Shown: positions 4,228 to 64,000 of the stretch, in pieces | How positions within the stretch are numbered: the stretch's first letter is position 1 | How the letters are laid out: each line of letters begins with the position of its first letter | Notes under the pieces: generated by a model | What the model was told of the DNA's origin: nothing | What the model saw: only the letters and a program-made list of their open reading frames with translations | The model's database searches: none | Position numbers and translations under genes: made by a program | Virus record (IMG/VR): IMGVR_UViG_3300020594_000001 | Coordinates: 45,600 to 109,599 of that record | Reading direction: 5' to 3' (one strand) | DNA length: 64,000 nt | From: a virus | Taxonomy: Duplodnaviria > Heunggongvirae > Uroviricota > Caudoviricetes

Positions 4228-4314
4228 ATCATGTCTGCCAACGAGAAGGAATCGAACCTTCGCCTTCGACCTCGCGAGTCGTTGCTCTACCAAACGCGCA
4301 TCGTTGGCAGACAT
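4228..4314 (-). other. tRNA-like element, a degenerate cloverleaf with anticodon GCG (Arg-like), enclosed in a 16-bp inverted repeat
   Basis: On the minus strand: acceptor GCCAACG/CGTTGGC, D-arm GCGC-GTTTGGTA-GAGC, anticodon loop TCGCGAG, T-arm GAAGG-TTCGATT-CCTTC. Defects are C at position 33, one extra nt before the 3' acceptor strand, and no encoded CCA. The stem is extended by ATCATGTCT/AGACATGAT. Confidence 0.4.
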
Positions 4315-4959: not shown

Positions 4960-5220
4960 TCATGCGCCCGCAGATGAGGATGCGACATCGCGCAACAGCG
5001 CCTTGAATTGCTCTTCAGACAGAGGCTCTCCCGACAGCTCGCCCGGCTCAATGGTTGAATCCATGTAAGACCATCCGTTCCACCAGTCAGCGACATACCA
5101 TTTCGTTCCATCGCCGGGAACCGACCTGTCTAGCTTCACGAGCTCGCCATGCACGTTGCGGAAGATCATGCCCTCTTCGAGCTCGTATCGGCGCTCATAC
5201 CAGTCAATTTCCTTGCTCAT
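4960..5220 (-). CDS. hypothetical protein, 86 aa
   Basis: A strong AGGGGGAA Shine-Dalgarno lies immediately 3' of the tmRNA coding piece. Confidence 0.5.
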   Translation of the reverse strand: MSKEIDWYERRYELEEGMIFRNVHGELVKLDRSVPGDGTKWYVADWWNGWSYMDSTIEPGELSGEPLSEEQFKALLRDVASSSAGA

Positions 5221-5221
5221 G

Positions 5222-5662
5222 TGCTTCCCCCTACGTTGCGCTTCAATGATGGCCCCCGGCTTCTGTTGCCACCTGCCGGGGAAGGCCGTTACCGCTTAAG
5301 CAGCGGCACGGATGTAGTCGTCGTTGGCGTCTACAAGTTTTGCTTGGTTTATACGGCTCCGCTTGCCGAGTAGTTCGATTCGCTTCAGTATGTCTGTCGA
5401 AACCATGTCAGCCCCATCAGGAATTCCCTCGCCACTTTCGTCGGAGCAACCCGACTACTTGCTTCACTCACCAGTCCGTCGTTATGCGCACTTACGATAG
5501 GACTCGTGGGCCGTCTTGCCCCTCTATGGGCAGTCACGGAGGGAATTCCTGGTGGAGCTGGCGGGAGTCGAACCCGCGTCCAGACACCATTCACTGCACG
5601 TCTCGCGCCCCCCTCCGGCTAGAGGAAGTCGCACACTACCATCATCGAAGCGGGCCGGGCTT
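5222..5662 (-). ncRNA. ssrA: circularly permuted two-piece tmRNA gene: acceptor piece about 5550..5662, intervening hairpin 5416..5547, coding piece about 5222..5415
   Basis: The minus strand reads ...GGACGCGGGTTCGACTCCCGCCAGCTCCACCA (T-arm, acceptor 3' strand, CCA), ending at 5550. The tRNA-like 5' end GGGGCTGACATGGTTTCGACAG starts at 5415, after the CCA. A tag frame GCC AAC GAC GAC TAC ATC CGT GCC GCT GCT TAA (ANDDYIRAAA) lies at 5296..5328. A 14-bp complement links the coding-piece 3' end to the acceptor-piece 5' end. Confidence 0.7.
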
Positions 5663-5966
5663 GATACCGGCTTGTGCGTTATTTTGTTTTCGGGGTGGCC
5701 TGCCCCTCAAGCTAAAGGCTCGTATGCCTACGACACCACTGCACACAGTCTCGCGTTTCCTTCAACGCCGCCGCTTCGATGATGGTCCTGGTGCTTGACG
5801 TTTTCACAAGAGGCGCACCAGGAATACCCCTTGCTATGCTTCGGTTACATGACGGTCTCCGGTTCGTTCATTGTTCACCTTAAAGTTGTGTTGTCAGTAT
5901 AGGTATTGTGCGCTTTAGGTCTCGGAACGAACGCTCTTTACAACCACGGTGATCTGATTCTTCACG

Positions 5967-6200
5967 TCAATACCCCTGTTCAAGTGCCCATGCCTCAATG
6001 GCGTCGATGGTTTGTTGATCGACCTTGTGCCATTCACCCCGGACGTTTTCCAGCCCGCCCTCTCCCATCAGCAGCTCCAGGCTCCCGGTGTATTCACCAT
6101 GAACACCCTTCTTGCTGATAAAGCAGGATGGCCCGAACTCTTCGTTGCCCGCCTCGAATTCGACGGTAAAACCGTCAATCACAGTTTTTGCGTCCTTCAT
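5967..6200 (-). CDS. hypothetical protein, 77 aa
   Basis: ATG at 6198..6200 with a GGGGGAAAG Shine-Dalgarno. Confidence 0.5.
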   Translation of the reverse strand: MKDAKTVIDGFTVEFEAGNEEFGPSCFISKKGVHGEYTGSLELLMGEGGLENVRGEWHKVDQQTIDAIEAWALEQGY

Positions 6201-6436
6201 TCACTTTCCCCCAGTGGCCCAACTAAGTCGGTGAACGGATCAACAAGATCGTCGAATCGTTCAGCAAAGTGAGGCTCATCGAAAAGCCCGCAGTAGAACG
6301 CGGTTTCGATCGCCTCGCGCAGCGCTCGCAGCGCCTGCTTTTGGGCTGGGTCAAGATCGCATTCAAATCCGCCACCATTGGGTTGCGACGATACGCTGAC
6401 ATACGTATCGTTTTCTTGGTCATATTGAAGCTGCAT
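6197..6436 (-). CDS. hypothetical acidic protein, 79 aa
   Basis: Start trimmed to MQLQYDQ, ATG at 6434..6436, preceded by the leader GGCACTATGCACATAACTACATCAAAACAGGTAAATACG. Confidence 0.5.
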   Translation of the reverse strand: MQLQYDQENDTYVSVSSQPNGGGFECDLDPAQKQALRALREAIETAFYCGLFDEPHFAERFDDLVDPFTDLVGPLGESE

Positions 6437-6508
6437 CGTATTTACCTGTTTTGATGTAGTTATGTGCATAGTGCCCGCGACAGTCAGGCGCGTTTTGTGC
6501 TAAAACAA

Positions 6509-6528
6509 TACTGTATATTTAAACAGTA
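6509..6528 (+). promoter_or_regulatory. LexA (SOS) box, beta/gamma-proteobacterial type
   Basis: TACTGTATATTTAAACAGTA fits CTGT-N8-ACAG with palindromic flanks. It lies 11 bp upstream of the ATG at 6537. Confidence 0.6.
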
Positions 6529-6536
6529 TCAAGGCC

Positions 6537-6839
6537 ATGCCCAGATGCACTCTACAAACCTCCCACTCGTTCGGCCAACCCCGCATAGCGTGGTCTGCCC
6601 CGGTCGAGGTGCCTATCAAGCTGTCGACGCGAGAGCACGATAGGCTCAAGCGCGTCGTGTCATACCTGCATGTTCCCTACCAGGGCGACGGCAACCTAGA
6701 CGCCAGCCAGAAAATCGCTGCGCTGTATGAGCCTTACGTGCTTGCGTTCAACTCTGACAAAAGCATCGTCTTTGGTGGGTTCGAGGAAATCACCGGCTCA
6801 CGCTTCTACCAAAGCTGGCTTGTGAAATGGCTCGACTAG
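6537..6839 (+). CDS. hypothetical protein, 100 aa, plus-strand, probably SOS-regulated
   Basis: One of very few plus-strand genes. A LexA box overlaps its promoter and RBS region. Confidence 0.5.
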   Translation: MPRCTLQTSHSFGQPRIAWSAPVEVPIKLSTREHDRLKRVVSYLHVPYQGDGNLDASQKIAALYEPYVLAFNSDKSIVFGGFEEITGSRFYQSWLVKWLD

Positions 6840-6986
6840 CGTAGCGATGATATCCAGGTTCGCCTCGATATCCCGCAGGCAGTCAGCCGCTTGGGCGATT
6901 GCGCCAGCGGGCGACTTTGCCCGAAAGTTTCCGACCTCTGTGAGTCGCCCACCGTTCACACGGCACTGCACGATGTAGCTGTTCAT
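6798..6986 (-). CDS. hypothetical protein, 62 aa
   Basis: ATG at 6984..6986 with an AGGGAG Shine-Dalgarno. Confidence 0.4.
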   Translation of the reverse strand: MNSYIVQCRVNGGRLTEVGNFRAKSPAGAIAQAADCLRDIEANLDIIATLVEPFHKPALVEA

Positions 6987-7150
6987 ACCGCAATCTCCCT
7001 TATCCGAGACTCGAACCACTCTGCCCGCCCGTATGGGTCAACGCCAAGGCAAGGGTATAGCATCGCCAGCAGTTCACACATGCCACGTATGTATTCTGCG
7101 TTTGAAAAATCGCCCGCGAGAAGGGCGGCGTTCTTGATCGCGATTTCCAT
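6983..7150 (-). CDS. hypothetical protein, 55 aa
   Basis: ATG at 7148..7150; trimmed from ORF 6983..7231. Confidence 0.35.
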   Translation of the reverse strand: MEIAIKNAALLAGDFSNAEYIRGMCELLAMLYPCLGVDPYGRAEWFESRIREIAV

Positions 7151-7151
7151 G

Positions 7152-7556
7152 TCAGTCCTCAAAAGAAAGCGTTTCAAGCATGGCGATACACTCTTTGTCA
7201 GGCCCGCCATTGGATGCGATGTAAGCGTCATACCTGGCTTGATCCATCCAGTCTGCCTTGTTTATGCCAGCCAAGAAGGACAGATAGCTCGTCATGTGTT
7301 TTGCCAGATCAGGCGTCTCAACTTCCCAATGCTTTAGGTCGTAAGTCCCTTTGTAGGTTTGGCCGTTCTCCCACTCGACGACAAAGTCGGTCTTGTCGTA
7401 GGCACCATTCTTGGGCGCAGTGCCAGACCAAGTTTGAAGCAATGCATTGGCCTGCTTGAAAGTCGGAACGGTCAAAGGCAGGGCATCGCTCTGGTAGGTA
7501 TAACCCTCTTTGTAGGTGAAGGTGATGGCCTTGACTTTGATTTTTTCTGTTTGCAT
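7152..7556 (-). CDS. hypothetical protein, 134 aa
   Basis: Start at 7556 is preceded by the leader GGGCTCACTATAGAACCATCACATAACAAAACAGGTAAACACGA. Confidence 0.55.
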   Translation of the reverse strand: MQTEKIKVKAITFTYKEGYTYQSDALPLTVPTFKQANALLQTWSGTAPKNGAYDKTDFVVEWENGQTYKGTYDLKHWEVETPDLAKHMTSYLSFLAGINKADWMDQARYDAYIASNGGPDKECIAMLETLSFED

Positions 7557-7587
7557 TCGTGTTTACCTGTTTTGTTATGTGATGGTT

Positions 7588-7800
7588 CTATAGTGAGCCC
7601 GCAACGTAGGCGTCGACATAGCGCTCGCCATCCCAGACCTGTAAGCGGCGCGGGTCAATTGGCTGCGACGCGCTTCGTTTTGCCTCTTTCAGCGCGTCGT
7701 CATGGCTTGATGCGCCGATCATGACCCATCCAAAACTGCCTCGGTAGCGGTAGCTGGTCAGTCCCGGCGATGCCATAGGTCTGTCAGTGTGAGCGGCCAC
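7588..7800 (-). CDS. hypothetical protein, 70 aa
   Basis: Minus-strand ORF in the operon array. Confidence 0.4.
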   Translation of the reverse strand: MAAHTDRPMASPGLTSYRYRGSFGWVMIGASSHDDALKEAKRSASQPIDPRRLQVWDGERYVDAYVAGSL

Positions 7801-52766: not shown

Positions 52767-55700
52767 TCAGTTGGTTAGTTCTGCGATTTGGGCGCAGGTT
52801 TGTTGAAGCAGCTTGATCTTGCTCGCGTCGAAGTAGATGGTGCTCGGATTCATTCCAAAGACGATGCTGGCGTCCAAGGCGGGATCGAAGATTGTCTTGC
52901 CCACTAACTCTGTGGGGTTACCCTTGGTCGACGGGGCAAAGTAGCGAATGGCATTACCACCCATGGCGACAATGACGGCGGGCTTGAGAATTTCAATTTC
53001 CCGAGCCAGATACTTTGAGCAACCATTGATTTGCTCTGTCGAAAGCACCTTCTGCTCTTTTGGTTTTACTGACTTCACCAGGGAAGTGTAGTAACCGTCG
53101 TTAGGACTGAGACCCGCGTCTTTGAGCGCCGCGCGAACCGCGTCACCAACGTCGCCCGACAGCATTTTTCCGTCTTGCGCTTCCTTCCAGTTGGGGGAGT
53201 CGAACACCATCATGAAGCGTGGCTTCTTACCCATGCTGGGCGTGGGGTGCTGCCCGCCAGACAACGAGCAACCGTCGCAAACACGCATTTCTCCGATGAT
53301 TTCTGCAATCTTCAGCTGAGCGATACGGTCGGCATTGAGCCCACGGTCCGCCTTCACTGCGTCAACGGTGTATCCCGGCATGAGTTCCAGGCGGTCTTTC
53401 AGTCGGTCAGGGTGCAGCGCAGGCAAGCCGTCGCCAAGCGATGCAAAAGCGCCCACCTTGCGTAGCACCTCTTTGTGGCGCACGTTGATTTTGCCCGCGA
53501 CGGTGCTCTTGGCGACCTCTTCAAACTGATCGAACGACTCGAAGGGTTTACCCTGGGCAGCGCGCACCTCAAGAATCTTCGCAGCCACGTTTACGCTGAT
53601 ACCCTTGATGGCCTGGAATGGCGCATAGAGTGTGCGTTCACCATCGATTGTGATTGTGTCGGACGACTTATTGATATCCGGTGGCAGCACGTCGATCCCG
53701 TGCGTCTTGGCGTCCATCATGATGGGCGCAAGCTTGTCGTCATCGTCGACCACCGACATAGACGCCGCATAGAACTCAGCTGGGTAATAGACCTTGAGCC
53801 ACATCATCTGATAGGAAATCAAGGTGTATGCGAACGCGTGGGACTTATTAAAGCAATACGCGGCAAAGCCCTCGATGTCGTTCCAAAGTGCCTGCGCATC
53901 AAGCTCACTCATGCCACTGGCGACTGCGCCATCGATGAACTGTTGGCCCATCGTTGCCATCTTGTCCTTGTCTTTCTTACCGATCGCTTTACGAAGCCCG
54001 TCAGCTTCTGCGCCGGTAAACCCGCAAAGGTCGACCGCGATTCGGGATACCTGCTCTTGGTAGACCGTAACCCCGAATGTTTCGCGCAGCGCGGGTTCGA
54101 CCAGCGGACTGATGTAGCTGGGCAGTTTCTTGCCTTGCTTAACTGCGATGTATTGATCCATCAGCCCCGCGTCGATTGGACCCGGACGAAACAGTGCTGT
54201 CGCGGCGGCGATATCCTCGAACGTCAGAGGCTCTAACACCGCCAAATCTTTCAGCAGCTTGCGCATGCCCGAGCCAGAAAACTGAAACACGCCCACCGTA
54301 TCGCCTCGACCAAATGCTTCAAGCACCTTACGATCGTCCAGCGGCAGCGCCAGCAGGTTGATCGTCTTATGATGGCGCTCTTTGATATAGCGACGGGCAT
54401 GCGCAAGCACGTCGAGCGTAGACAGACCCAGAATGTCCATCTTGACGAGGCCGAAGTCTTCAACCACGCTTTTATCCCAGTTCACCACCGGCAGCGCACC
54501 CTCTTGACGCTGCATCACCACCGCGCGGGTGTTGATGTCATCGTGCGCGACAATGACGCCCGCTGCGTGCTGCCCCAGGTTACGCATGTTCCCTTCGAGC
54601 GTCGTCGCATGGTTCCATATGACGGGATGCTCAGCCTTGAACTTTGCAATATCTGGCACGCTCGCCGCAGACTCTTCGAGCGGAAGCGAAACCCCGTGCT
54701 CCTTCTCCATTTGCTTGGAACACGAATATTCGTAGGGCTTCAGACCATGCACACGGGAGACGTCCCGAAGTGACGAAGCGGAGCCCAGGGTCGAATAGTT
54801 CGAAATGCCCGCGACTTTGGCGCGACCAAACCTGCCCACGATATACTCGACGACTTCGCCTCGTCGTGAGCTCATGAAGTCCATGTCCACGTCAGGCAGG
54901 TCGATACGGTCGGGATTGATGAAGCGTTCGAACAGAAGGCCAAACCGAATCGGGTCTAAGTCTGTAATGCCAAGCAGGTATGACACCAATGAGCCCGCAG
55001 CTGAACCGCGACCAGGGCCAACGATGACGTCTTGCGCTTTTGACCAACCGACAATCTCTTGAACAAGCAAGAAGTAGTTCGAGAACCCGAGGCGTCGCAG
55101 CACGCCAAGCTCATACGCCAAGCGCTCCTTATACCTCTGCATATCTTCGGGCGCGGGCTTGTGGCCCAGCACTTCACTACCAAAGCGTTTTACCCAGCCT
55201 TCTTTGCAGCGCTCTAGCAACGTCTTGAATGCGTCTTCAGCCATATGGGGCAGCGACGCAGGCATCTTCTCGAAGCGATAGAAGCACTGCTCGACAATCT
55301 GATCCATGGACGCGAAACTTTGCTTAACTTCATCGCCATTCATTCCGATACGGCGGGCGGTCGAAATCATTCGCGTCGCGAGCTCTTTGGGGTCATCGAA
55401 GCACCAATCCCGGGTAGCTGGCACAGGCAGCTGGGGAGAGCCCATGGTGTATGTTCCAGAGCTTGTGATGGCCCTGAGAACATCATGGCTTGCAGCTTGG
55501 TCGCTTGATGCATAAAAGCGCGGGTAGCCCGCAATCAGCGGTAGCCCACGACTGCGGGCGCATGCCAGCGCTTTGCGGTTGAGCGTGTCGAACAACATGC
55601 TCTGAACCGGCGTAATCTCGATATAGAGCGGGTGTTTCTCCGACAGCGCTTGGACGATTTCGCCTGCCTTGGGGTGATGAAACAGGCAGAATAGGTCACC

Positions 55701-56135
55701 CGTTGTGACAATCACGTCTTCAAGCGCCAGCACCTGTGAAAGCTCGGTGCGGGCATGGTAGTAAAACTGGTCAGCGCTGTTTGCCTTAGACAGCAAGCCC
55801 ATCAGCGACCGCAAACCCGTCTCGGTCTTTACGTAAACCTTGATTTGAAAAGAGTGGTTTCGAACCTCAACCGCGCCCTCTTTCTTCTTTTGCTGAGCGG
55901 TGGGCGGGCGATAAGTTGCGCTGTCATATACACGAAGCGTGCACCCAAGAACAGGGGTAATGTCGTGCTTCTTGCAAGCAGACGAGAATGCGGGCAAGCC
56001 CGATATCGTCATGGTGTCTGTGAGCGCGATCGATTTGAAGCCCAACTCTTTGGCGCGCTCAACCATCGGCACCACCTGCAAGATTGACTCCCCGACAGAG
56101 TGATCAGACCGAACAGACAGTGCATGTTGTAACAC
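52767..56135 (-). CDS. dnaE: DNA polymerase III alpha subunit (DnaE-type)
   Basis: N-terminal PHP domain and the palm region GPGRGSAAGSLVSYLLGITDLDPIRFGLLFERFINPDR; 1122 aa. Confidence 0.85.
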   Translation of the reverse strand: MLQHALSVRSDHSVGESILQVVPMVERAKELGFKSIALTDTMTISGLPAFSSACKKHDITPVLGCTLRVYDSATYRPPTAQQKKKEGAVEVRNHSFQIKVYVKTETGLRSLMGLLSKANSADQFYYHARTELSQVLALEDVIVTTGDLFCLFHHPKAGEIVQALSEKHPLYIEITPVQSMLFDTLNRKALACARSRGLPLIAGYPRFYASSDQAASHDVLRAITSSGTYTMGSPQLPVPATRDWCFDDPKELATRMISTARRIGMNGDEVKQSFASMDQIVEQCFYRFEKMPASLPHMAEDAFKTLLERCKEGWVKRFGSEVLGHKPAPEDMQRYKERLAYELGVLRRLGFSNYFLLVQEIVGWSKAQDVIVGPGRGSAAGSLVSYLLGITDLDPIRFGLLFERFINPDRIDLPDVDMDFMSSRRGEVVEYIVGRFGRAKVAGISNYSTLGSASSLRDVSRVHGLKPYEYSCSKQMEKEHGVSLPLEESAASVPDIAKFKAEHPVIWNHATTLEGNMRNLGQHAAGVIVAHDDINTRAVVMQRQEGALPVVNWDKSVVEDFGLVKMDILGLSTLDVLAHARRYIKERHHKTINLLALPLDDRKVLEAFGRGDTVGVFQFSGSGMRKLLKDLAVLEPLTFEDIAAATALFRPGPIDAGLMDQYIAVKQGKKLPSYISPLVEPALRETFGVTVYQEQVSRIAVDLCGFTGAEADGLRKAIGKKDKDKMATMGQQFIDGAVASGMSELDAQALWNDIEGFAAYCFNKSHAFAYTLISYQMMWLKVYYPAEFYAASMSVVDDDDKLAPIMMDAKTHGIDVLPPDINKSSDTITIDGERTLYAPFQAIKGISVNVAAKILEVRAAQGKPFESFDQFEEVAKSTVAGKINVRHKEVLRKVGAFASLGDGLPALHPDRLKDRLELMPGYTVDAVKADRGLNADRIAQLKIAEIIGEMRVCDGCSLSGGQHPTPSMGKKPRFMMVFDSPNWKEAQDGKMLSGDVGDAVRAALKDAGLSPNDGYYTSLVKSVKPKEQKVLSTEQINGCSKYLAREIEILKPAVIVAMGGNAIRYFAPSTKGNPTELVGKTIFDPALDASIVFGMNPSTIYFDASKIKLLQQTCAQIAELTN

Positions 56136-56145
56136 CTATAACCCC

Positions 56146-56772
56146 TTATGATTCGTTGTGGTAATACAGCTTTGTAGTATTGCTATCGATGCGAGGATTG
56201 AGCGTCATCAAGCCCGCAGCGTCTTCGACGCCTATCCCAAGCTCTTTGAAAACGCGCCAGATCAATGACGCCTGGACCGACGCTGAGCTCGATGCCCAGC
56301 CTAGGGCAGATTGGAGCGCTGCCTTCGCTTGTGCCTTGGAAACAGGAACACGGTTGGACAGCAGCAGATACATCGTGCTGGCGGTGCGTTGGCTGTCATT
56401 TGGGAATGGGTTCTCGCCATTGGCAAGCGCCTGGGCAATGAAAGTCTCTTTCCTGAACATTGCCCGCATCATCTTGCCCACCGCTGCAGGAACGCTGTCG
56501 ATCAGCGCTTTCTGTGTGGGCGTCGGTGCCCAGCGCGCGCGGGTCGCCCGCTCGACTTTCACCTCAAGAGGTCTGGGCTGCGCAACGCGTTCGACCGGGT
56601 CATTAACCGCGACCATTGTGCTGAAGGTCAGAATGAGCTCTGGATCGCCAATCCTCGATAGGACGGTGCGAGACACCGACACACACGCATTTGCGCTGGC
56701 GCATGTGTTGCATTTGGGCGACCGCACGCTAAACACGCTGGGAATGCCAAAGCACCCCGGTTGCCTAAGCAT
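56146..56772 (-). CDS. hypothetical protein with N-terminal Cys cluster; candidate anti-sigma partner
   Basis: Cys cluster CFG...KCNTCASANAC. It overlaps the sigma factor stop by 8 nt, suggesting translational coupling. Confidence 0.3.
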   Translation of the reverse strand: MLRQPGCFGIPSVFSVRSPKCNTCASANACVSVSRTVLSRIGDPELILTFSTMVAVNDPVERVAQPRPLEVKVERATRARWAPTPTQKALIDSVPAAVGKMMRAMFRKETFIAQALANGENPFPNDSQRTASTMYLLLSNRVPVSKAQAKAALQSALGWASSSASVQASLIWRVFKELGIGVEDAAGLMTLNPRIDSNTTKLYYHNES

Positions 56773-57448
56773 GAATCTTCACCCCCAACACGGTGTCGAA
56801 CTCCTGCGCGATGCCGCGCATTTGCTCGCGGGAATAGCCTAGGTAACGCCCGATAAGACGAACCGACAGCTTTTCGCTCGGATTGCGACGCTTAGCGCCA
56901 CCCGCAATGTGCTTGTGAATGGCAGCGAGATATTCTTCGTGCGCGTCCATAACCGCCTGGGTCGGGGCCATGATTTCACGAATGATGCGCCGGGCCTCTG
57001 CCGATAGGCACCTAATTCGCTCTGAAATTTCGACGCTACGCACTGCCAACTGCTCGACGCTCAGCGTGGTGTCGGCCAGGTATTGCTCGGGGGAAAACTC
57101 GTCTTCGTCGTCCTCCCCAGACATTTCGCTAAAAAGCATCACCCCATGCAGGGCTCGCTCTTCGATGCGCTTGTTGACATAGCGGTTCACGTTGTTAAGC
57201 ACCGCCCGCCCCATGTAAGCGCTGAATGTGATGCCCAGGCCAGGCTTATAGGTGCGCAGTGCCTCAGCGTAAGAAAGACACGCCTCTTGGAACAAGTCTT
57301 CGTATTGAATGTTGGTCTTTGTCGCAAGAACCCGCGTGTGGATGGTCCTGGCGAGCTTGTGGATTAAGCCTTTCTGGGCTTCGAAGCTGGTGTCAAAACC
57401 ACGCCCCACCCCGGGGCGTGATCCTGATTGTTGAAGTTGAGTGCTCAT
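56765..57448 (-). CDS. sigma-70 family RNA polymerase sigma factor (regions 2 and 4)
   Basis: Region 2-like EDLFQEACLSYAEALRTYKPGLGITFSAYMGRAVLNNV and a C-terminal HTH LSVRLIGRYLGYSREQMRGIAQ. Confidence 0.5.
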   Translation of the reverse strand: MSTQLQQSGSRPGVGRGFDTSFEAQKGLIHKLARTIHTRVLATKTNIQYEDLFQEACLSYAEALRTYKPGLGITFSAYMGRAVLNNVNRYVNKRIEERALHGVMLFSEMSGEDDEDEFSPEQYLADTTLSVEQLAVRSVEISERIRCLSAEARRIIREIMAPTQAVMDAHEEYLAAIHKHIAGGAKRRNPSEKLSVRLIGRYLGYSREQMRGIAQEFDTVLGVKIHA

Positions 57449-61003: not shown

Positions 61004-61046
61004 TTTATAGTTAGCGCTTGCTTTATCAAGTAAGCACTAACTATAC
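61004..61046. promoter_or_regulatory. divergent pair of the phage motif (TATAGTTAGCGCTTGC / GTAAGCACTAACTATA)
   Basis: It sits between the divergently transcribed genes 60720..60935 (-) and 61091..61420 (+). Confidence 0.5.
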
Positions 61047-61090: not shown

Positions 61091-61420
61091 ATGGCTTCCA
61101 GGGGAGCGCTTATGGCAAGTAAGAAAGGGGCTAACGTCCCGACCGCCGCTGACATCCTCAGCGAGGCGATAAAAAACTCGGGCGATAAGCTCAGCAGTGT
61201 GGGCCAAGCAATGGGCTTCAAAAGCCACTCTGCCATCTGGCAATATTGCAAGGGCACAACCGGCATACCGATATCAACAGCTATCAAACTTGGGCTCGCA
61301 GCCGGTATGACGCATGAGCAAGCCCAGGAATTCTTTCTCATCAACATGCGGGAACGTGACCCAGAATTATATGCAGCTGTAACAACTGTAATAAATTCTG
61401 CCATCGCGGCGCGGGGCTGA
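61091..61420 (+). CDS. helix-turn-helix transcriptional regulator (Cro/CI-like)
   Basis: LSSVGQAMGFKSHSAIWQYCKG resembles an XRE-type HTH. It is plus-strand, next to the int/xis module. Confidence 0.5.
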   Translation: MASRGALMASKKGANVPTAADILSEAIKNSGDKLSSVGQAMGFKSHSAIWQYCKGTTGIPISTAIKLGLAAGMTHEQAQEFFLINMRERDPELYAAVTTVINSAIAARG

Positions 61421-62118: not shown

Positions 62119-62412
62119 ATGAGCCCTACCGAAATTGTTCTGAAGCAGTTCCCCAATCGTGTTTCTTTGTCTGTGGCAGAAGCGGGCGCGGCCCTGGGCT
62201 ACGCTCGCCAAACCACCTACAACCTGAAAGCGAAAGGGAAATTTCCCGTCAGGATCAGCTTCGCGGGCAAGACTCCGATCGTCCATCTGCACGACCTCAT
62301 CAGCTTCCTAGAGGGCTTTCCCGCTTCGAACGATTCCAACTTCACCCCAGCACCCAAGAAGAAAGGGCGTCCCTCGAAAGCGGACGCCCTTCGCAAAGCA
62401 GGGGTGATCTAA
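62119..62412 (+). CDS. AlpA/Xis-family excisionase or DNA-binding protein
   Basis: LSVAEAGAALGYARQTTYNLKAKGKFP is a MerR-like winged HTH of the AlpA type. It overlaps the int stop. Confidence 0.6.
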   Translation: MSPTEIVLKQFPNRVSLSVAEAGAALGYARQTTYNLKAKGKFPVRISFAGKTPIVHLHDLISFLEGFPASNDSNFTPAPKKKGRPSKADALRKAGVI

Positions 62413-63506
62413 GCGACTTTCGTTGCTTCGCTGCGGTTGGCGGCGACTCGCTCCGCCATCTTCTGAGCCAAGAATTTGGCGTTCAAATGAGTGTATCGCC
62501 TCAGCTGACGGTAGTCACGGTGCCCAGTAACTGCCGCTGCCTCCACTAAGCTCATACCCAAGTCTTCGAAAAGTCTGCTCGTCGCTTCATGGCGCGCGTC
62601 ATGCAGACGCAAATCTTTGAATAGTTGTGGGTCGGGGGCGATGCCCTGCTCCAGACACTCTTTCTCATAGATTTCTCGGGCACGCTTTCGCGCACGACCA
62701 AATGCCTGGGTAAGCGAGTCAGCTGCCACACCAAAAACCCTTCCTTCCTTGCGATCCCCGATAACTTCGCGTAGCACTTCTGCAACACCGGGCAGGATCG
62801 GAATCGTTCGATCATCGCCATTCTTGGTGTCGGGCAAAAACACTGTCGCGTCTCGTAGGTTAACGTGCGGGATTTCCATTTCAGCAGCTTCACCTCGGCG
62901 CATCGCGCTATTAACCGCCACATAGAGAAACGCTTTGAGCGCTGGTGAATTGCTTGCCTCGACGATCTTTGTATATTCATAGTCCGCCTCGTTCATTTCA
63001 CAAACGAAACGCCTGGTTCGCCCCTTTGGGGCGGCGGGGCGTTTAAGACCTTCTATGGGATTCTTGAGGCCCTTGAAGTCGTTGCATTCCGATATGGCGA
63101 AGTTATAGAACGACGAAATCATCCCTAACTCGCGAATGACTGTCCCTTTGGACACCGTCAGCAGTCGAGTGTTTCGGTATTCGCGAAAATCGGACAATCC
63201 ACAATCGAGCAACTCTTTGCGCGCCAAGGGCAATCTCTTCAGCCGCAAGATGAAGTTGAGCTCCTGCTTTGCACCCTTTTTGGACGGCACGGCCTTCTCC
63301 TGGCAATAGTCCAAAAGGTCGTAGAGCCGCTTTCCCTTAAGGTGCCGCATGTCGACAAAGGTCTTTTCCTTAATCGCCTTCTCAGTCTGTTCCGCCCATT
63401 CTTCTGCTTCGCGGCGGGTGGGGAAGGTTTCTGATAACGACGGGGTGCCCTTAACCCGCACCTTTGCCCTGAACTGGTATGGGCCACGCTCTTCAATGAC
63501 AGCCAT
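62409..63506 (-). CDS. int: tyrosine-type phage integrase
   Basis: C-terminal catalytic motifs LHDARHEA and TGHRDYRQLRRYTHL (R..H..R..Y); adjacent to a tRNA. Confidence 0.85.
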   Translation of the reverse strand: MAVIEERGPYQFRAKVRVKGTPSLSETFPTRREAEEWAEQTEKAIKEKTFVDMRHLKGKRLYDLLDYCQEKAVPSKKGAKQELNFILRLKRLPLARKELLDCGLSDFREYRNTRLLTVSKGTVIRELGMISSFYNFAISECNDFKGLKNPIEGLKRPAAPKGRTRRFVCEMNEADYEYTKIVEASNSPALKAFLYVAVNSAMRRGEAAEMEIPHVNLRDATVFLPDTKNGDDRTIPILPGVAEVLREVIGDRKEGRVFGVAADSLTQAFGRARKRAREIYEKECLEQGIAPDPQLFKDLRLHDARHEATSRLFEDLGMSLVEAAAVTGHRDYRQLRRYTHLNAKFLAQKMAERVAANRSEATKVA

Positions 63507-63652: not shown

Positions 63653-63728
63653 TGGTGGGTGCTACAGGGGTCGAACCTGTGACCTACGCCTTGTAAGGGC
63701 GCCGCTCTACCAACTGAGCTAAGCACCC
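63653..63728 (-). tRNA. tRNA-Val (anticodon TAC)
   Basis: Manual cloverleaf on the minus strand, GGGTGCTTAGCTCAGTTGGTAGAGCGGCGCCCTTACAAGGCGTAGGTCACAGGTTCGACCCCTGTAGCACCCACCA, with an encoded CCA. Confidence 0.85.
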
Positions 63729-63887
63729 CGGGGCCATCTGCAGCGGGCAAACACGCAACGTGCCTGCCCGGCGATATTGCCATGCGAACCTGCCAAGGTT
63801 TACCCCGTTCAGGTTCGCCTTTTTGGGGCCACTTCGTGCCAAAAAAGCCTAAGGATTATAGCCCGCTGGCCCTAGGCACGCAAACGC

Positions 63888-64000
63888 TTAGTTGACGGCG
63901 TCTTTCAGGGCCTTGCCAGGACGGAACTTGGGCACGCGAGCCTTCTTGATCTTGATGGCTTCGCCGGTGCGCGGGTTGCGGCCGGTGCGGGCGGCGCGCT
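63888..64000 (-). CDS. host HU/IHF-family DNA-binding protein, C-terminal part (gene continues beyond the window)
   Basis: Translation ...[33 protein letters not shown] in a GC-rich, host-like flank. Confidence 0.6.

What the first reader, a model, noticed from the sequence alone, without database searches (positions are those of the whole stretch)
6436..6839. Consensus LexA box overlapping the promoter/RBS of a small plus-strand gene transcribed divergently from the minus-strand array
TACTGTATATTTAAACAGTA at 6509..6528 is a near-perfect CTGT-N8-ACAG SOS box of the beta/gamma-proteobacterial LexA type. It sits 11 bp before the ATG at 6537 of a 100-aa protein of unknown function. It also lies within the 100-bp gap shared with the leader of the divergent gene 6197..6436. 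Putting host LexA in direct control of a phage gene is a classic induction or anti-repressor switch, as with the tum or antirepressor genes of lambdoid and P2-like phages. This could be how the prophage senses DNA damage. The box also constrains host taxonomy, which matters for the tmRNA finding.
Basis: partly seen in the sequence, partly recalled or inferred. Interest (0 to 1): 0.55.

Follow-up and report, generated by a model that had tools for sequence, protein, structure and literature searches.

The report
LexA-repressed small gene in a prophage
A near-consensus SOS (LexA) operator sits on the promoter of a 100-aa phage gene from a widespread uncharacterised family that carries the same operator in over 100 other prophages and genomes; it is very probably DNA-damage induced, but it is probably not the prophage's induction switch.

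Summary
TACTGTATATTTAAACAGTA lies at 6509..6528, 8 nt before the ATG at 6537, and is the only LexA-type site in the 64 kb window. A matrix built from relatives' sites scores it 31.7 bits; the next best site scores 7.0.

The 100-aa ORF is a real gene. It belongs to a ~100-aa family with 173 profile hits, mostly Achromobacter, Bordetella and other Alcaligenaceae. Relatives match phrog_5560 (unknown function); there is no Pfam or NCBIfam model.

In 113 of 128 related loci a CTGT-N8-ACAG box ends 2-18 nt before the homologue's start codon. The background rate is about 0.0009 per equivalent stretch. Two homologues in other lineages carry a GAAC-N4-GTTC palindrome at the same place. LexA control of this gene family is therefore strongly supported.

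The antirepressor reading is not supported:
- Relatives coexist with self-cleaving S24-type CI repressors.
- Family identity does not track CI identity.
- Some copies look chromosomal.
- 89 of 124 loci have an SRAP (SOS-response-associated peptidase) gene adjacent on the same strand.

The AlphaFold model (pLDDT 88) is an all-beta, weakly PH-like fold unlike DinI or Tum.

Best reading: an SOS-induced accessory cassette whose product acts on a conserved DNA-damage-related target. Its function is unknown.

The parts
6509..6528 (.). LexA (SOS) operator TACTGTATATTTAAACAGTA; CTGT-N8-ACAG core at 6511..6526
   Evidence: Scores 31.7 bits with a matrix from relatives' sites and is the only site above 7 bits in 64 kb. 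An equivalent box lies upstream of homologues in 113/128 loci.
6498..6506 (+). Probable extended -10 element TGcTAAAAC of the rightward promoter. It would put the transcription start near 6513, inside the operator.
   Evidence: Sequence. The closest relatives carry TGgTAAAAA, TGgTACAAA, TGcTACAAC, TATGAT or TAGAAT abutting the box at the same position. Inferred; no transcript data.
6531..6534 (+). Weak Shine-Dalgarno-like AAGG, only 2 nt before the ATG
   Evidence: Sequence. Several close relatives have no SD at all and a similarly short distance from box to ATG.
6537..6839 (+). 100-aa gene, a divergent member of an uncharacterised ~100-aa family. Relatives match phrog_5560. Motif MPxC...H..G ... 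GFEEIxGxR(F/Y)YQxW.
   Evidence: Codon score. Exhaustive phmmer gave 24 hits and the profile search 173. Alignments A1-A3. 49/56 relatives hit phrog_5560. AF2 model pLDDT 88, all-beta.
6505..6532 (-). Leftward sigma-70-like promoter candidate: TTGATA, 16 nt, TATTGT. Its spacer is the LexA box.
   Evidence: Promoter scan. Not significant on its own: 2 hits against 1.6 expected in 3 kb. Not conserved in relatives.
6197..6436 (-). Divergent 79-aa ORF with a good RBS (AGGT 8 nt upstream). Possible second target of the operator.
   Evidence: No Pfam or PHROG hit.
5967..6200 (-). 77-aa ORF following the 79-aa ORF with a 4-nt overlap. It would be co-transcribed with it.
6798..6986 (-). Convergent 62-aa ORF whose 3' end overlaps the 100-aa gene by 42 nt
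   Evidence: called as a 62-aa gene in the public assemblies.

Best explanation
The box is a functional LexA operator on the core promoter and transcription start of the rightward 100-aa gene.

Proposed sequence of events:
1. In an undamaged lysogen, host LexA occupies 6509..6528 and blocks RNA polymerase at the extended -10 promoter (TGcTAAAAC, 6498..6506).
2. After DNA damage, RecA-stimulated LexA self-cleavage frees the promoter.
3. A short-leader mRNA is made and the 100-aa all-beta protein accumulates.

Box plus gene form a self-contained, horizontally mobile SOS cassette (a 'moron'). The same cassette occurs in more than 100 Alcaligenaceae/Burkholderiales prophages and some chromosomal sites, usually next to an SRAP (YedK-like) gene.

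The product most likely acts on a conserved target linked to DNA-damage processing. Candidates are SRAP or its DNA-protein crosslinks, RecA/LexA, or another host protein. A phage-specific repressor is the less likely target.

Shown: the operator, its uniqueness in the window, gene reality, family membership, conservation of the operator-gene pairing, SRAP linkage, and lack of co-variation with CI.
Inferred: promoter position, LexA binding, damage induction, and the class of target.
For: Operator:
- 2 mismatches from the 20-mer consensus, with no comparable match in 100 shuffles.
- 31.7 bits against 7.0 for the next best site in the window.

Pairing with the gene:
- 113/128 loci have a box ending 2-18 nt before the homologue's start (modes 14-17 and 5-10 nt; here 8). 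Only 19 other boxes occur in 903 kb of the same loci.
- Of the 15 loci without one, 4 are start-codon miscalls that do carry a box and 4 carry symmetric CTGG-N8-CCAG variants.
- The closest homologue (44% identity) and the P0113 loci also carry the box 5-6 nt before the ATG.
- Acidovorax phage Aval has a box 16 nt before the first gene of an operon containing a distant family member.
- L056 and L058 carry TTGACA-17-GAA(C/T)AT with a GAAC-N4-GTTC-type palindrome instead. That is the LexA motif reported for Gallionellales (PMC4951493).

Promoter: -10-like hexamers abut or overlap the left arm of the box in relatives and in the window.

Target class:
- SRAP is adjacent on the same strand in 89/124 loci.
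- In Pseudomonas phage pAN the SRAP and family genes are 2 nt apart.
- S24-type CI is present in PHB09 and at least 3 family-bearing proviruses.
- L101 and L134 share 95% family identity but only 44% CI identity. PHB09 and L102 share 54% family identity but 82% CI identity.
- A chromosomal-looking locus has SRAP twice and Pyr_excise.
Against: - There is no experimental evidence of LexA binding or induction, and no transcript map.
- The rightward promoter has no recognisable -35, and the SD spacing is poor.
- This phage has no SRAP gene in the 64 kb window, so the SRAP link is by association only.
- The window member is divergent: R8, T9, G25 and P61 of the family consensus are replaced. It does not reach phrog_5560 on its own.
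- The P. stutzeri phage homologues have no LexA box within 3.5 kb, so LexA control is not universal for the wider family.
- The co-variation test rests on only four phages.
- No self-cleaving repressor was found in this window, which leaves room for an induction role here.
Confidence: 0.6

Rival explanations
1. Tum/Gifsy/N15-type switch. The 100-aa protein is a LexA-controlled antirepressor that binds this phage's non-cleavable repressor, so LexA cleavage is how the prophage senses DNA damage.
For: - A LexA-controlled small phage gene is the architecture of Tum, GfoA/GftA and AntC (PMC3121763).
- No Peptidase_S24 domain was found in any window ORF scanned.
- The only repressor candidate by position is a 102-aa ORF (61112..61420) next to xis/int and facing the early operon. 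It is too small to carry a cleavage domain.
- This is the only LexA site in 64 kb.
Against: - No similarity to Tum, DinI or Gifsy antirepressors; the fold is PH-like and all-beta.
- Homologues coexist with HTH+S24 CI repressors.
- No co-variation with CI.
- Strongly conserved motifs across phages of different immunity, and chromosomal copies, argue for a conserved target.
- The dominant neighbour is SRAP.
- The 102-aa 'repressor' is an ORFan with no detected HTH model.
- About 45 kb of the phage lies outside the window and was not searched.
Confidence: 0.17
2. The operator mainly, or additionally, represses the leftward promoter TTGATA-16-TATTGT (6532..6505). The SOS response would then switch on the 79-aa and 77-aa ORFs and possibly read through into the phage tmRNA gene (5296..5612, minus strand).
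For: - It is the only sigma-70-like match (9/12) found in the gap by the scan, and the box fills its spacer exactly.
- The 79-aa ORF has a good RBS and a ~60-nt leader from such a start.
- Overlapping divergent promoters sharing one operator are common (general knowledge).
Against: - The promoter match is not above chance: 2 found against 1.6 expected in 3 kb. It is partly created by the TA ends of the box itself.
- Nothing equivalent is conserved in relatives, where the box always travels with the rightward gene whatever lies on the other side.
- The leftward ORFs have no detectable homologues in Pfam, PHROGs or IMG/VR to test.
- The tmRNA has its own promoter-like site at 5897..5870.
Confidence: 0.15
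3. The palindrome is a chance or relic sequence with no regulatory role, and/or the 100-aa ORF is not expressed.
For: The bare CTGT-N8-ACAG core is expected about 0.7 times by chance in 64 kb.
Against: - The full 20-mer match never occurred in 100 shuffles.
- 31.7 bits against 7.0 for the next best site.
- The gene-operator pairing is conserved in more than 110 loci.
- The ORF has 173 homologues with conserved motifs and a confident fold prediction.
Confidence: 0.03

Closest known systems
LexA-controlled prophage antirepressors: Tum of coliphage 186, GfoA/GftA/GfhA of Salmonella Gifsy prophages, AntC of N15
   Same: A small phage gene sits directly behind a consensus LexA box and apart from the immunity region. 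It is expressed only after LexA cleavage. In some relatives the cassette is preceded by a terminator-like hairpin (L015, L044), as described for the Gifsy dinI-ant operons (PMC3121763).
   Different: - No sequence or fold relationship, and no DinI-like part.
- Relatives occur with self-cleaving S24 CI repressors and do not co-vary with them.
- Some copies are chromosomal.
- Antirepressor activity was not testable here.
SRAP / YedK / YoqW (PF02586) SOS-associated genes in prophages (Aravind et al. 2013, PMC3765255)
   Same: Same genomic niche and theme. 89/124 family loci have SRAP next to the gene on the same strand, including Bordetella phage PHB09 and Pseudomonas phage pAN. SRAP in proteobacterial prophages is already noted in the literature.
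   Different: - The 100-aa protein is not an SRAP domain protein.
- The paper does not describe this partner family.
- In most loci the LexA box lies between SRAP and the family gene, so only the latter is LexA-controlled.
- This window has no SRAP.
phrog_5560 (PHROGs v4, unknown function)
   Same: 49 of 56 family members match it, with a best E-value of 2.7e-12. The window protein matches the family profile at E = 2.7e-28.
   Different: The window protein does not reach phrog_5560 at E <= 0.001 on its own. The PHROG carries no functional annotation, so membership adds no mechanism.
Canonical chromosomal SOS genes with CTGT-N8-ACAG operators overlapping the promoter (for example recA, sulA, dinI in E. 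coli)
   Same: Same operator type and consensus. The matrix built from relatives' sites has exactly the E. coli consensus TACTGTATATATATACAGTA. The operator is placed over the -10 and start region.
   Different: The gene is carried on mobile prophage DNA as a single-gene cassette. Its product belongs to no known SOS function.

Membership tests
LexA (SOS) regulon, CTGT-N8-ACAG operator class | 16-bp palindrome CTGT-(AT-rich N8)-ACAG with TA flanks, close to the consensus | tested here: met
   2 mismatches to the 20-mer consensus, with no such match in 100 shuffles. 31.7 bits with an independent matrix.
LexA (SOS) regulon, CTGT-N8-ACAG operator class | Operator overlaps the promoter core or transcription start of the regulated gene | tested here: inconclusive
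   The box ends 8 nt before the ATG. An extended -10-like TGcTAAAAC lies 2 nt upstream of the box, and homologous elements occur in close relatives. There is no -35 and no transcript data.
LexA (SOS) regulon, CTGT-N8-ACAG operator class | Site conserved upstream of orthologues (phylogenetic footprint) | tested here: met
   113/128 loci, against a background of ~0.0009 per 41-nt stretch. The operator type is switched to GAAC-N4-GTTC in two homologues.
LexA (SOS) regulon, CTGT-N8-ACAG operator class | LexA binds the site; transcription is induced by DNA damage in a RecA/LexA-dependent way | not testable with these tools
   Needs EMSA or footprinting, and qRT-PCR or RNA-seq after mitomycin C.
LexA-controlled antirepressors (Tum / Gifsy GfoA-GftA / N15 AntC) | Gene under direct LexA control | tested here: met
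   As above. This rests on sequence and comparative evidence only.
LexA-controlled antirepressors (Tum / Gifsy GfoA-GftA / N15 AntC) | Sequence or structural relationship to a known antirepressor or to DinI | tested here: not met
LexA-controlled antirepressors (Tum / Gifsy GfoA-GftA / N15 AntC) | Cognate phage repressor lacks a self-cleavage domain | tested here: inconclusive
   In relatives: not met. HTH+Peptidase_S24 CI is present in PHB09 and at least 3 family-bearing proviruses. In this phage: no S24 in the window, but the repressor is unidentified and ~45 kb of the phage is unseen.
LexA-controlled antirepressors (Tum / Gifsy GfoA-GftA / N15 AntC) | Specificity for, and co-variation with, the cognate repressor | tested here: not met
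   L101 and L134 share 95% family identity but 44% CI identity. PHB09 and L102 share 54% family identity but 82% CI identity. Only four phages were compared.
LexA-controlled antirepressors (Tum / Gifsy GfoA-GftA / N15 AntC) | Protein binds the repressor, and its expression alone induces the prophage | not testable with these tools
   Needs genetics or biochemistry.
The ~100-aa family (phrog_5560-like) | Full-length profile match and conserved motifs (C4, H10, G13; L63; G81-F-E-E-I; R89, Y91, Q92, W94, W98) | tested here: met
   E = 2.7e-28 to the family profile. Full-length phmmer hits. These motifs are present in the window protein, but R8, T9, G25, P61 and G93 are replaced.
The ~100-aa family (phrog_5560-like) | Direct match to the PHROG model | tested here: not met
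   The window protein has no PHROG hit at E <= 0.01. 49/56 relatives do. Membership is therefore through the family profile, not the PHROG model.
SRAP-linked SOS cassette | SRAP (PF02586) gene adjacent on the same strand | tested here: not met
   An SRAP profile built from relatives finds nothing in the 64 kb window. 89/124 relatives have it.

The most novel reading that the evidence does not exclude
The family is a previously unrecognised SOS effector that works with SRAP/YedK-type abasic-site crosslinking proteins, or on RecA/LexA/S24 proteins generally. Prophages of Burkholderiales would then carry a portable, LexA-gated module that alters how the damaged host cell handles DNA lesions or how quickly S24 repressors are inactivated. 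The module has tracked changes of host LexA specificity (CTGT-N8-ACAG to GAAC-N4-GTTC).
Probability: 0.3. Interest if true: 0.7.

Novelty: new member of a known kind. Interest (0 to 1): 0.5.

Why it matters
- Regulation by LexA is textbook. The product, however, belongs to a conserved family with no described function. That family now has three concrete handles: a conserved LexA operator in more than 110 loci, a strong genomic link to SRAP, and a confident all-beta model.
- This makes it a testable candidate for a new SOS-induced function carried by prophages of Achromobacter and Bordetella, which are clinically relevant hosts.
- For this window, the result supports a beta-proteobacterial (Burkholderiales-type) LexA in the host. 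That bears on interpreting the phage's permuted tmRNA.
- It also cautions against reading every LexA box in a prophage as an induction switch.

Tried and rejected
- DNA similarity of 5800..7600 to 50,697 phage records: no match.
- Pfam, PHROG, NCBIfam and PADLOC scans on the window protein: nothing.
- Word-indexed protein search with the single sequence: only itself. The three public contigs carrying it are 100% identical to the window, so they give no diversity.
- Relatives of the flanking 134-aa, 77-aa and 171-aa genes in IMG/VR and JGI metagenomes: none usable. I therefore could not test whether the cassette is an insertion relative to sister phages, or whether the leftward promoter is conserved.
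- Single-sequence AlphaFold: poor, pLDDT 48. It was replaced by the alignment-based model.
- The afdb50 fold library was unavailable. BFVD and PDB Foldseek gave nothing significant.
- The profile hit to clostridial toxin CROP and choline-binding repeats was rejected as a short beta-hairpin motif resemblance summed over many repeats; no single matched stretch passed for the top hits.
- The 102-aa ORF by the integrase looked helix-turn-helix-like by eye. It has no Pfam, PDB or database homologue, so calling it the repressor is unproven.
- Extending the contig leftward gave only unannotated small ORFs.
- The Sanchez-Alberola 2015 paper on the GAAC-type beta-proteobacterial LexA motif is not held. 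The motif statement is taken from PMC4951493.

Full report
**1. The observation**

The sequence TACTGTATATTTAAACAGTA is at 6509..6528, with the CTGT-N8-ACAG core at 6511..6526. The ATG is at 6537, and the gap to the divergent minus-strand ORF (6197..6436) is exactly 100 bp.

The bare core is not significant on its own: 1 found against 0.72 expected. The 20-mer is significant. It has 2 mismatches to TACTGTATATATATACAGTA, and no match with <=3 mismatches occurred in 100 dinucleotide-preserving shuffles.

I built a position weight matrix from 62 distinct boxes found upstream of homologues elsewhere, excluding this one. Its consensus is exactly the E. coli consensus. It scores the window site at 31.7 bits, against 19.7-34.8 for those sites. 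The next best site in all 64 kb scores 7.0 bits. This is therefore the only LexA-type site in the window.

**2. The gene is real**

- ORF 6537..6839 has a positive codon-usage score (16.6 in all, 0.165 per codon), while every overlapping frame is negative.
- A word-indexed search found only the protein itself. The public contigs carrying it are identical to the window.
- An exhaustive phmmer scan of 1.84 billion representatives found 24 relatives. Most are ~100 aa and aligned end to end.
- A profile search then found 173 proteins, named only 'hypothetical', from Achromobacter, Bordetella and other Alcaligenaceae.
- Alignments A1-A3 show a conserved N-terminus (MPxCxVxRTHxxG) and a strongly conserved C-terminus (IPxLxEPxLLTFxSDRGMMVxGFEEIDGxRYYQGWW).
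- Homologues align from residue 1, so the ATG at 6537 is the start.
- The window protein is a divergent member. C4, H10, G13, L63, G81-F-E-E-I, R89, Y91, Q92, W94 and W98 are kept. R8, T9, G25, P61 and G93 are replaced.
- No Pfam, NCBIfam or PADLOC model matches. 49 of 56 relatives match phrog_5560, which has unknown function.

**3. The operator travels with the gene**

I fetched 54 genomic loci and 80 IMG/VR proviral loci encoding homologues. I located each gene with the family profile and scanned upstream.

- Of 128 loci with at least 60 nt of upstream sequence, 113 have a LexA-type box ending 2-18 nt before the start codon. The modes are 14-17 nt and 5-10 nt; the window has 8.
- Elsewhere in the same 903 kb there are only 19 such boxes, about 0.0009 per equivalent stretch.
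- Of the 15 exceptions, four are my start-codon miscalls and do carry a box. Four carry symmetric CTGG-N8-CCAG variants.
- Two exceptions (L056, L058; MAGs labelled Gammaproteobacteria) carry TTGACA-17-GAA(C/T)AT with a GAAC-N4-GTTC-type palindrome instead. That is the LexA motif reported for Firmicutes, Actinobacteria and Gallionellales (PMC4951493).
- The closest homologue (P0002, 44% identity) and the P0113 loci also carry a box 5-6 nt before the ATG.
- Acidovorax phage Aval has a box 16 nt before the first gene of a three-gene operon that contains a distant family member.
- The more distant homologues in two Pseudomonas stutzeri phages have no box within 3.5 kb.

LexA control is thus a conserved, selected property of this family in Burkholderiales. 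The rightward gene is the operator's primary partner.

**4. Promoter anatomy (inferred)**

In most relatives a -35-like TTGCGC/TTGCAC is followed after 17 nt by TA(A/T)ACT, which overlaps the left arm of the box. In the subgroup closest to the window a -10-like element abuts the box: TGgTAAAAA, TGgTACAAA, TGcTACAAC, TATGAT or TAGAAT.

The window has TGcTAAAAC at 6498..6506, 2 nt before the box. This would be an extended -10 promoter with no recognisable -35. The predicted start is near 6513, inside the operator, so LexA would occlude the start region.

The SD is poor: AAGG lies only 2 nt from the ATG. Several close relatives also lack one.

The generic scan reports only a leftward promoter, TTGATA-16-TATTGT (6532..6505), whose spacer is the box. 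That match is not above chance (2 found, 1.6 expected) and is not conserved. It could make the operator bidirectional, also controlling the 79-aa and 77-aa ORFs.

**5. What relatives say about function**

Position:
- In the lambdoid Bordetella phage PHB09 the homologue (QEA10915) lies at the right end of the genome. It follows the lysis genes and is on the opposite strand to them.
- Most IMG/VR copies lie within a few kb of a provirus end.

SRAP linkage:
- The PHB09 upstream neighbour is an SRAP (PF02586) protein.
- With an SRAP profile, 84 of 124 non-identical loci have SRAP immediately upstream on the same strand. Five more have it immediately downstream. These five include the loci closest to the window protein, where the order is box, family gene, then SRAP.
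- In Pseudomonas phage pAN the SRAP and family genes are separated by 2 nt.

Repressors:
- PHB09 CI has HTH plus Peptidase_S24. At least three family-bearing proviruses also encode full-length relatives of that CI.
- Family identity does not follow CI identity. L101 and L134 share 95% family identity but 44% CI identity. PHB09 and L102 share 54% family identity but 82% CI identity.

Chromosomal context:
- One set of loci (L145-L147) looks chromosomal. The cassette lies between a sensor kinase gene and a cluster with two SRAP genes and a pyrimidine-dimer glycosylase.

Together these argue that the protein acts on something conserved and related to DNA damage, not on each phage's own repressor.

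**6. Structure**

A profile hit to clostridial CROP and choline-binding repeats reflects a short GF.EIDG..YYF-like hairpin motif. I do not take it as homology. Nothing resembles DinI or any described antirepressor.

**7. This phage**

The window is almost entirely minus-strand genes of a large temperate phage; public contigs are 93-110 kb. It contains:
- an integrase (62409..63506) beside tRNA-Val (63653..63728);
- an Xis-like ORF;
- a DnaE-UDG fusion, gp32, RecA, SbcCD-like proteins, RNR, CobS/CobT-like proteins and RtcB;
- a sigma factor, an HU protein and an Acb2/Tad1-hairpin protein;
- a permuted tmRNA.

The right flank jumps to 62-66% GC, against 54% for the phage, and encodes an HU C-terminus. 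This is consistent with integration in a higher-GC host.

No Peptidase_S24 domain was found in any ORF scanned. The only repressor candidate by position is the 102-aa ORF at 61112..61420. It is an ORFan with no HTH model hit. About 45 kb of the phage is outside the window. An induction role in this phage cannot be excluded, but nothing positive supports it.

**8. Verdict**

The functional label of antirepressor or induction switch is not supported (about 0.17).

I commit to this reading: a LexA-gated, horizontally mobile single-gene cassette encoding an SOS-induced effector with a conserved, DNA-damage-related target, most plausibly linked to SRAP. Overall confidence is 0.6, of which the target class is the weak part.

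It is a new member of a known kind (an SOS-regulated prophage accessory gene). The product family is uncharacterised.

Noticed in passing
window 5296..5612 (-) (ARAGORN 5205..5642): Phage-borne permuted (two-piece) tmRNA. Rfam RF04321 scores 106 bits; the tag peptide is ANDDYIRAAA. It lies about 350 nt downstream (leftward) of the 77-aa ORF and has its own promoter-like site at 5897..5870.
   Followed up: partly
window 4237..4307 (-): tRNA-like element found by Rfam (RF00005, 36.6 bits) but not called by ARAGORN.
   Followed up: no
L056 3760..3830 and L058 1975..2045: Homologues of the 100-aa gene in two MAGs carry TTGACA-17-GAA(C/T)AT with a GAAC-N4-GTTC-type palindrome in place of the CTGT-N8-ACAG box. 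The operator type appears to have switched with host LexA specificity.
   Followed up: partly
Related loci L005-L138; L139 168..827; L195 2767..3468: An SRAP (SOS-response-associated peptidase) gene is adjacent on the same strand in 89/124 loci. The LexA box usually lies between SRAP and the family gene, so SRAP itself is mostly not behind a box.
   Followed up: yes
window 61006..61045: 18-nt imperfect inverted repeat TATAGTTAGCGCTTGCTT / AAGTAAGCACTAACTATA. It lies in the 430-bp gap between the leftward early operon and the rightward 102-aa ORF next to xis/int. It is a candidate phage operator or terminator.
   Followed up: no
window 63729..64000: GC content rises to 0.62-0.66, against 0.54 for the phage. 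The C-terminus of an HU-type DNA-binding protein is encoded on the minus strand just beyond tRNA-Val. Several public assemblies break here, as expected at a prophage/host junction.
   Followed up: partly
window 52767..56135 (-): DNA polymerase III alpha (PHP, NTPase, finger and HHH domains) is fused to a C-terminal uracil-DNA-glycosylase-superfamily domain.
   Followed up: no
window, one of the 67 small ORFs scanned together (not located): One ORF matches the Acb2/Tad1 hairpin domain of the anti-CBASS/anti-Thoeris sponges (E = 1.1e-18). Others match Sigma70_r2, HU, ThyX and RNase_T. The public annotation places the sigma-like gene at about 56765..57448.
   Followed up: no
window 7110..7128: GC-rich hairpin that scores as terminator-like on both strands. 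It has a T-run on the minus strand, yet lies inside the small minus-strand ORF 6983..7150.
   Followed up: no
window 6798..6839: The 100-aa gene and the convergent 62-aa minus-strand gene overlap by 42 nt at their 3' ends. SOS-induced rightward transcription would run antisense into the minus-strand genes 6798..7556.
   Followed up: no
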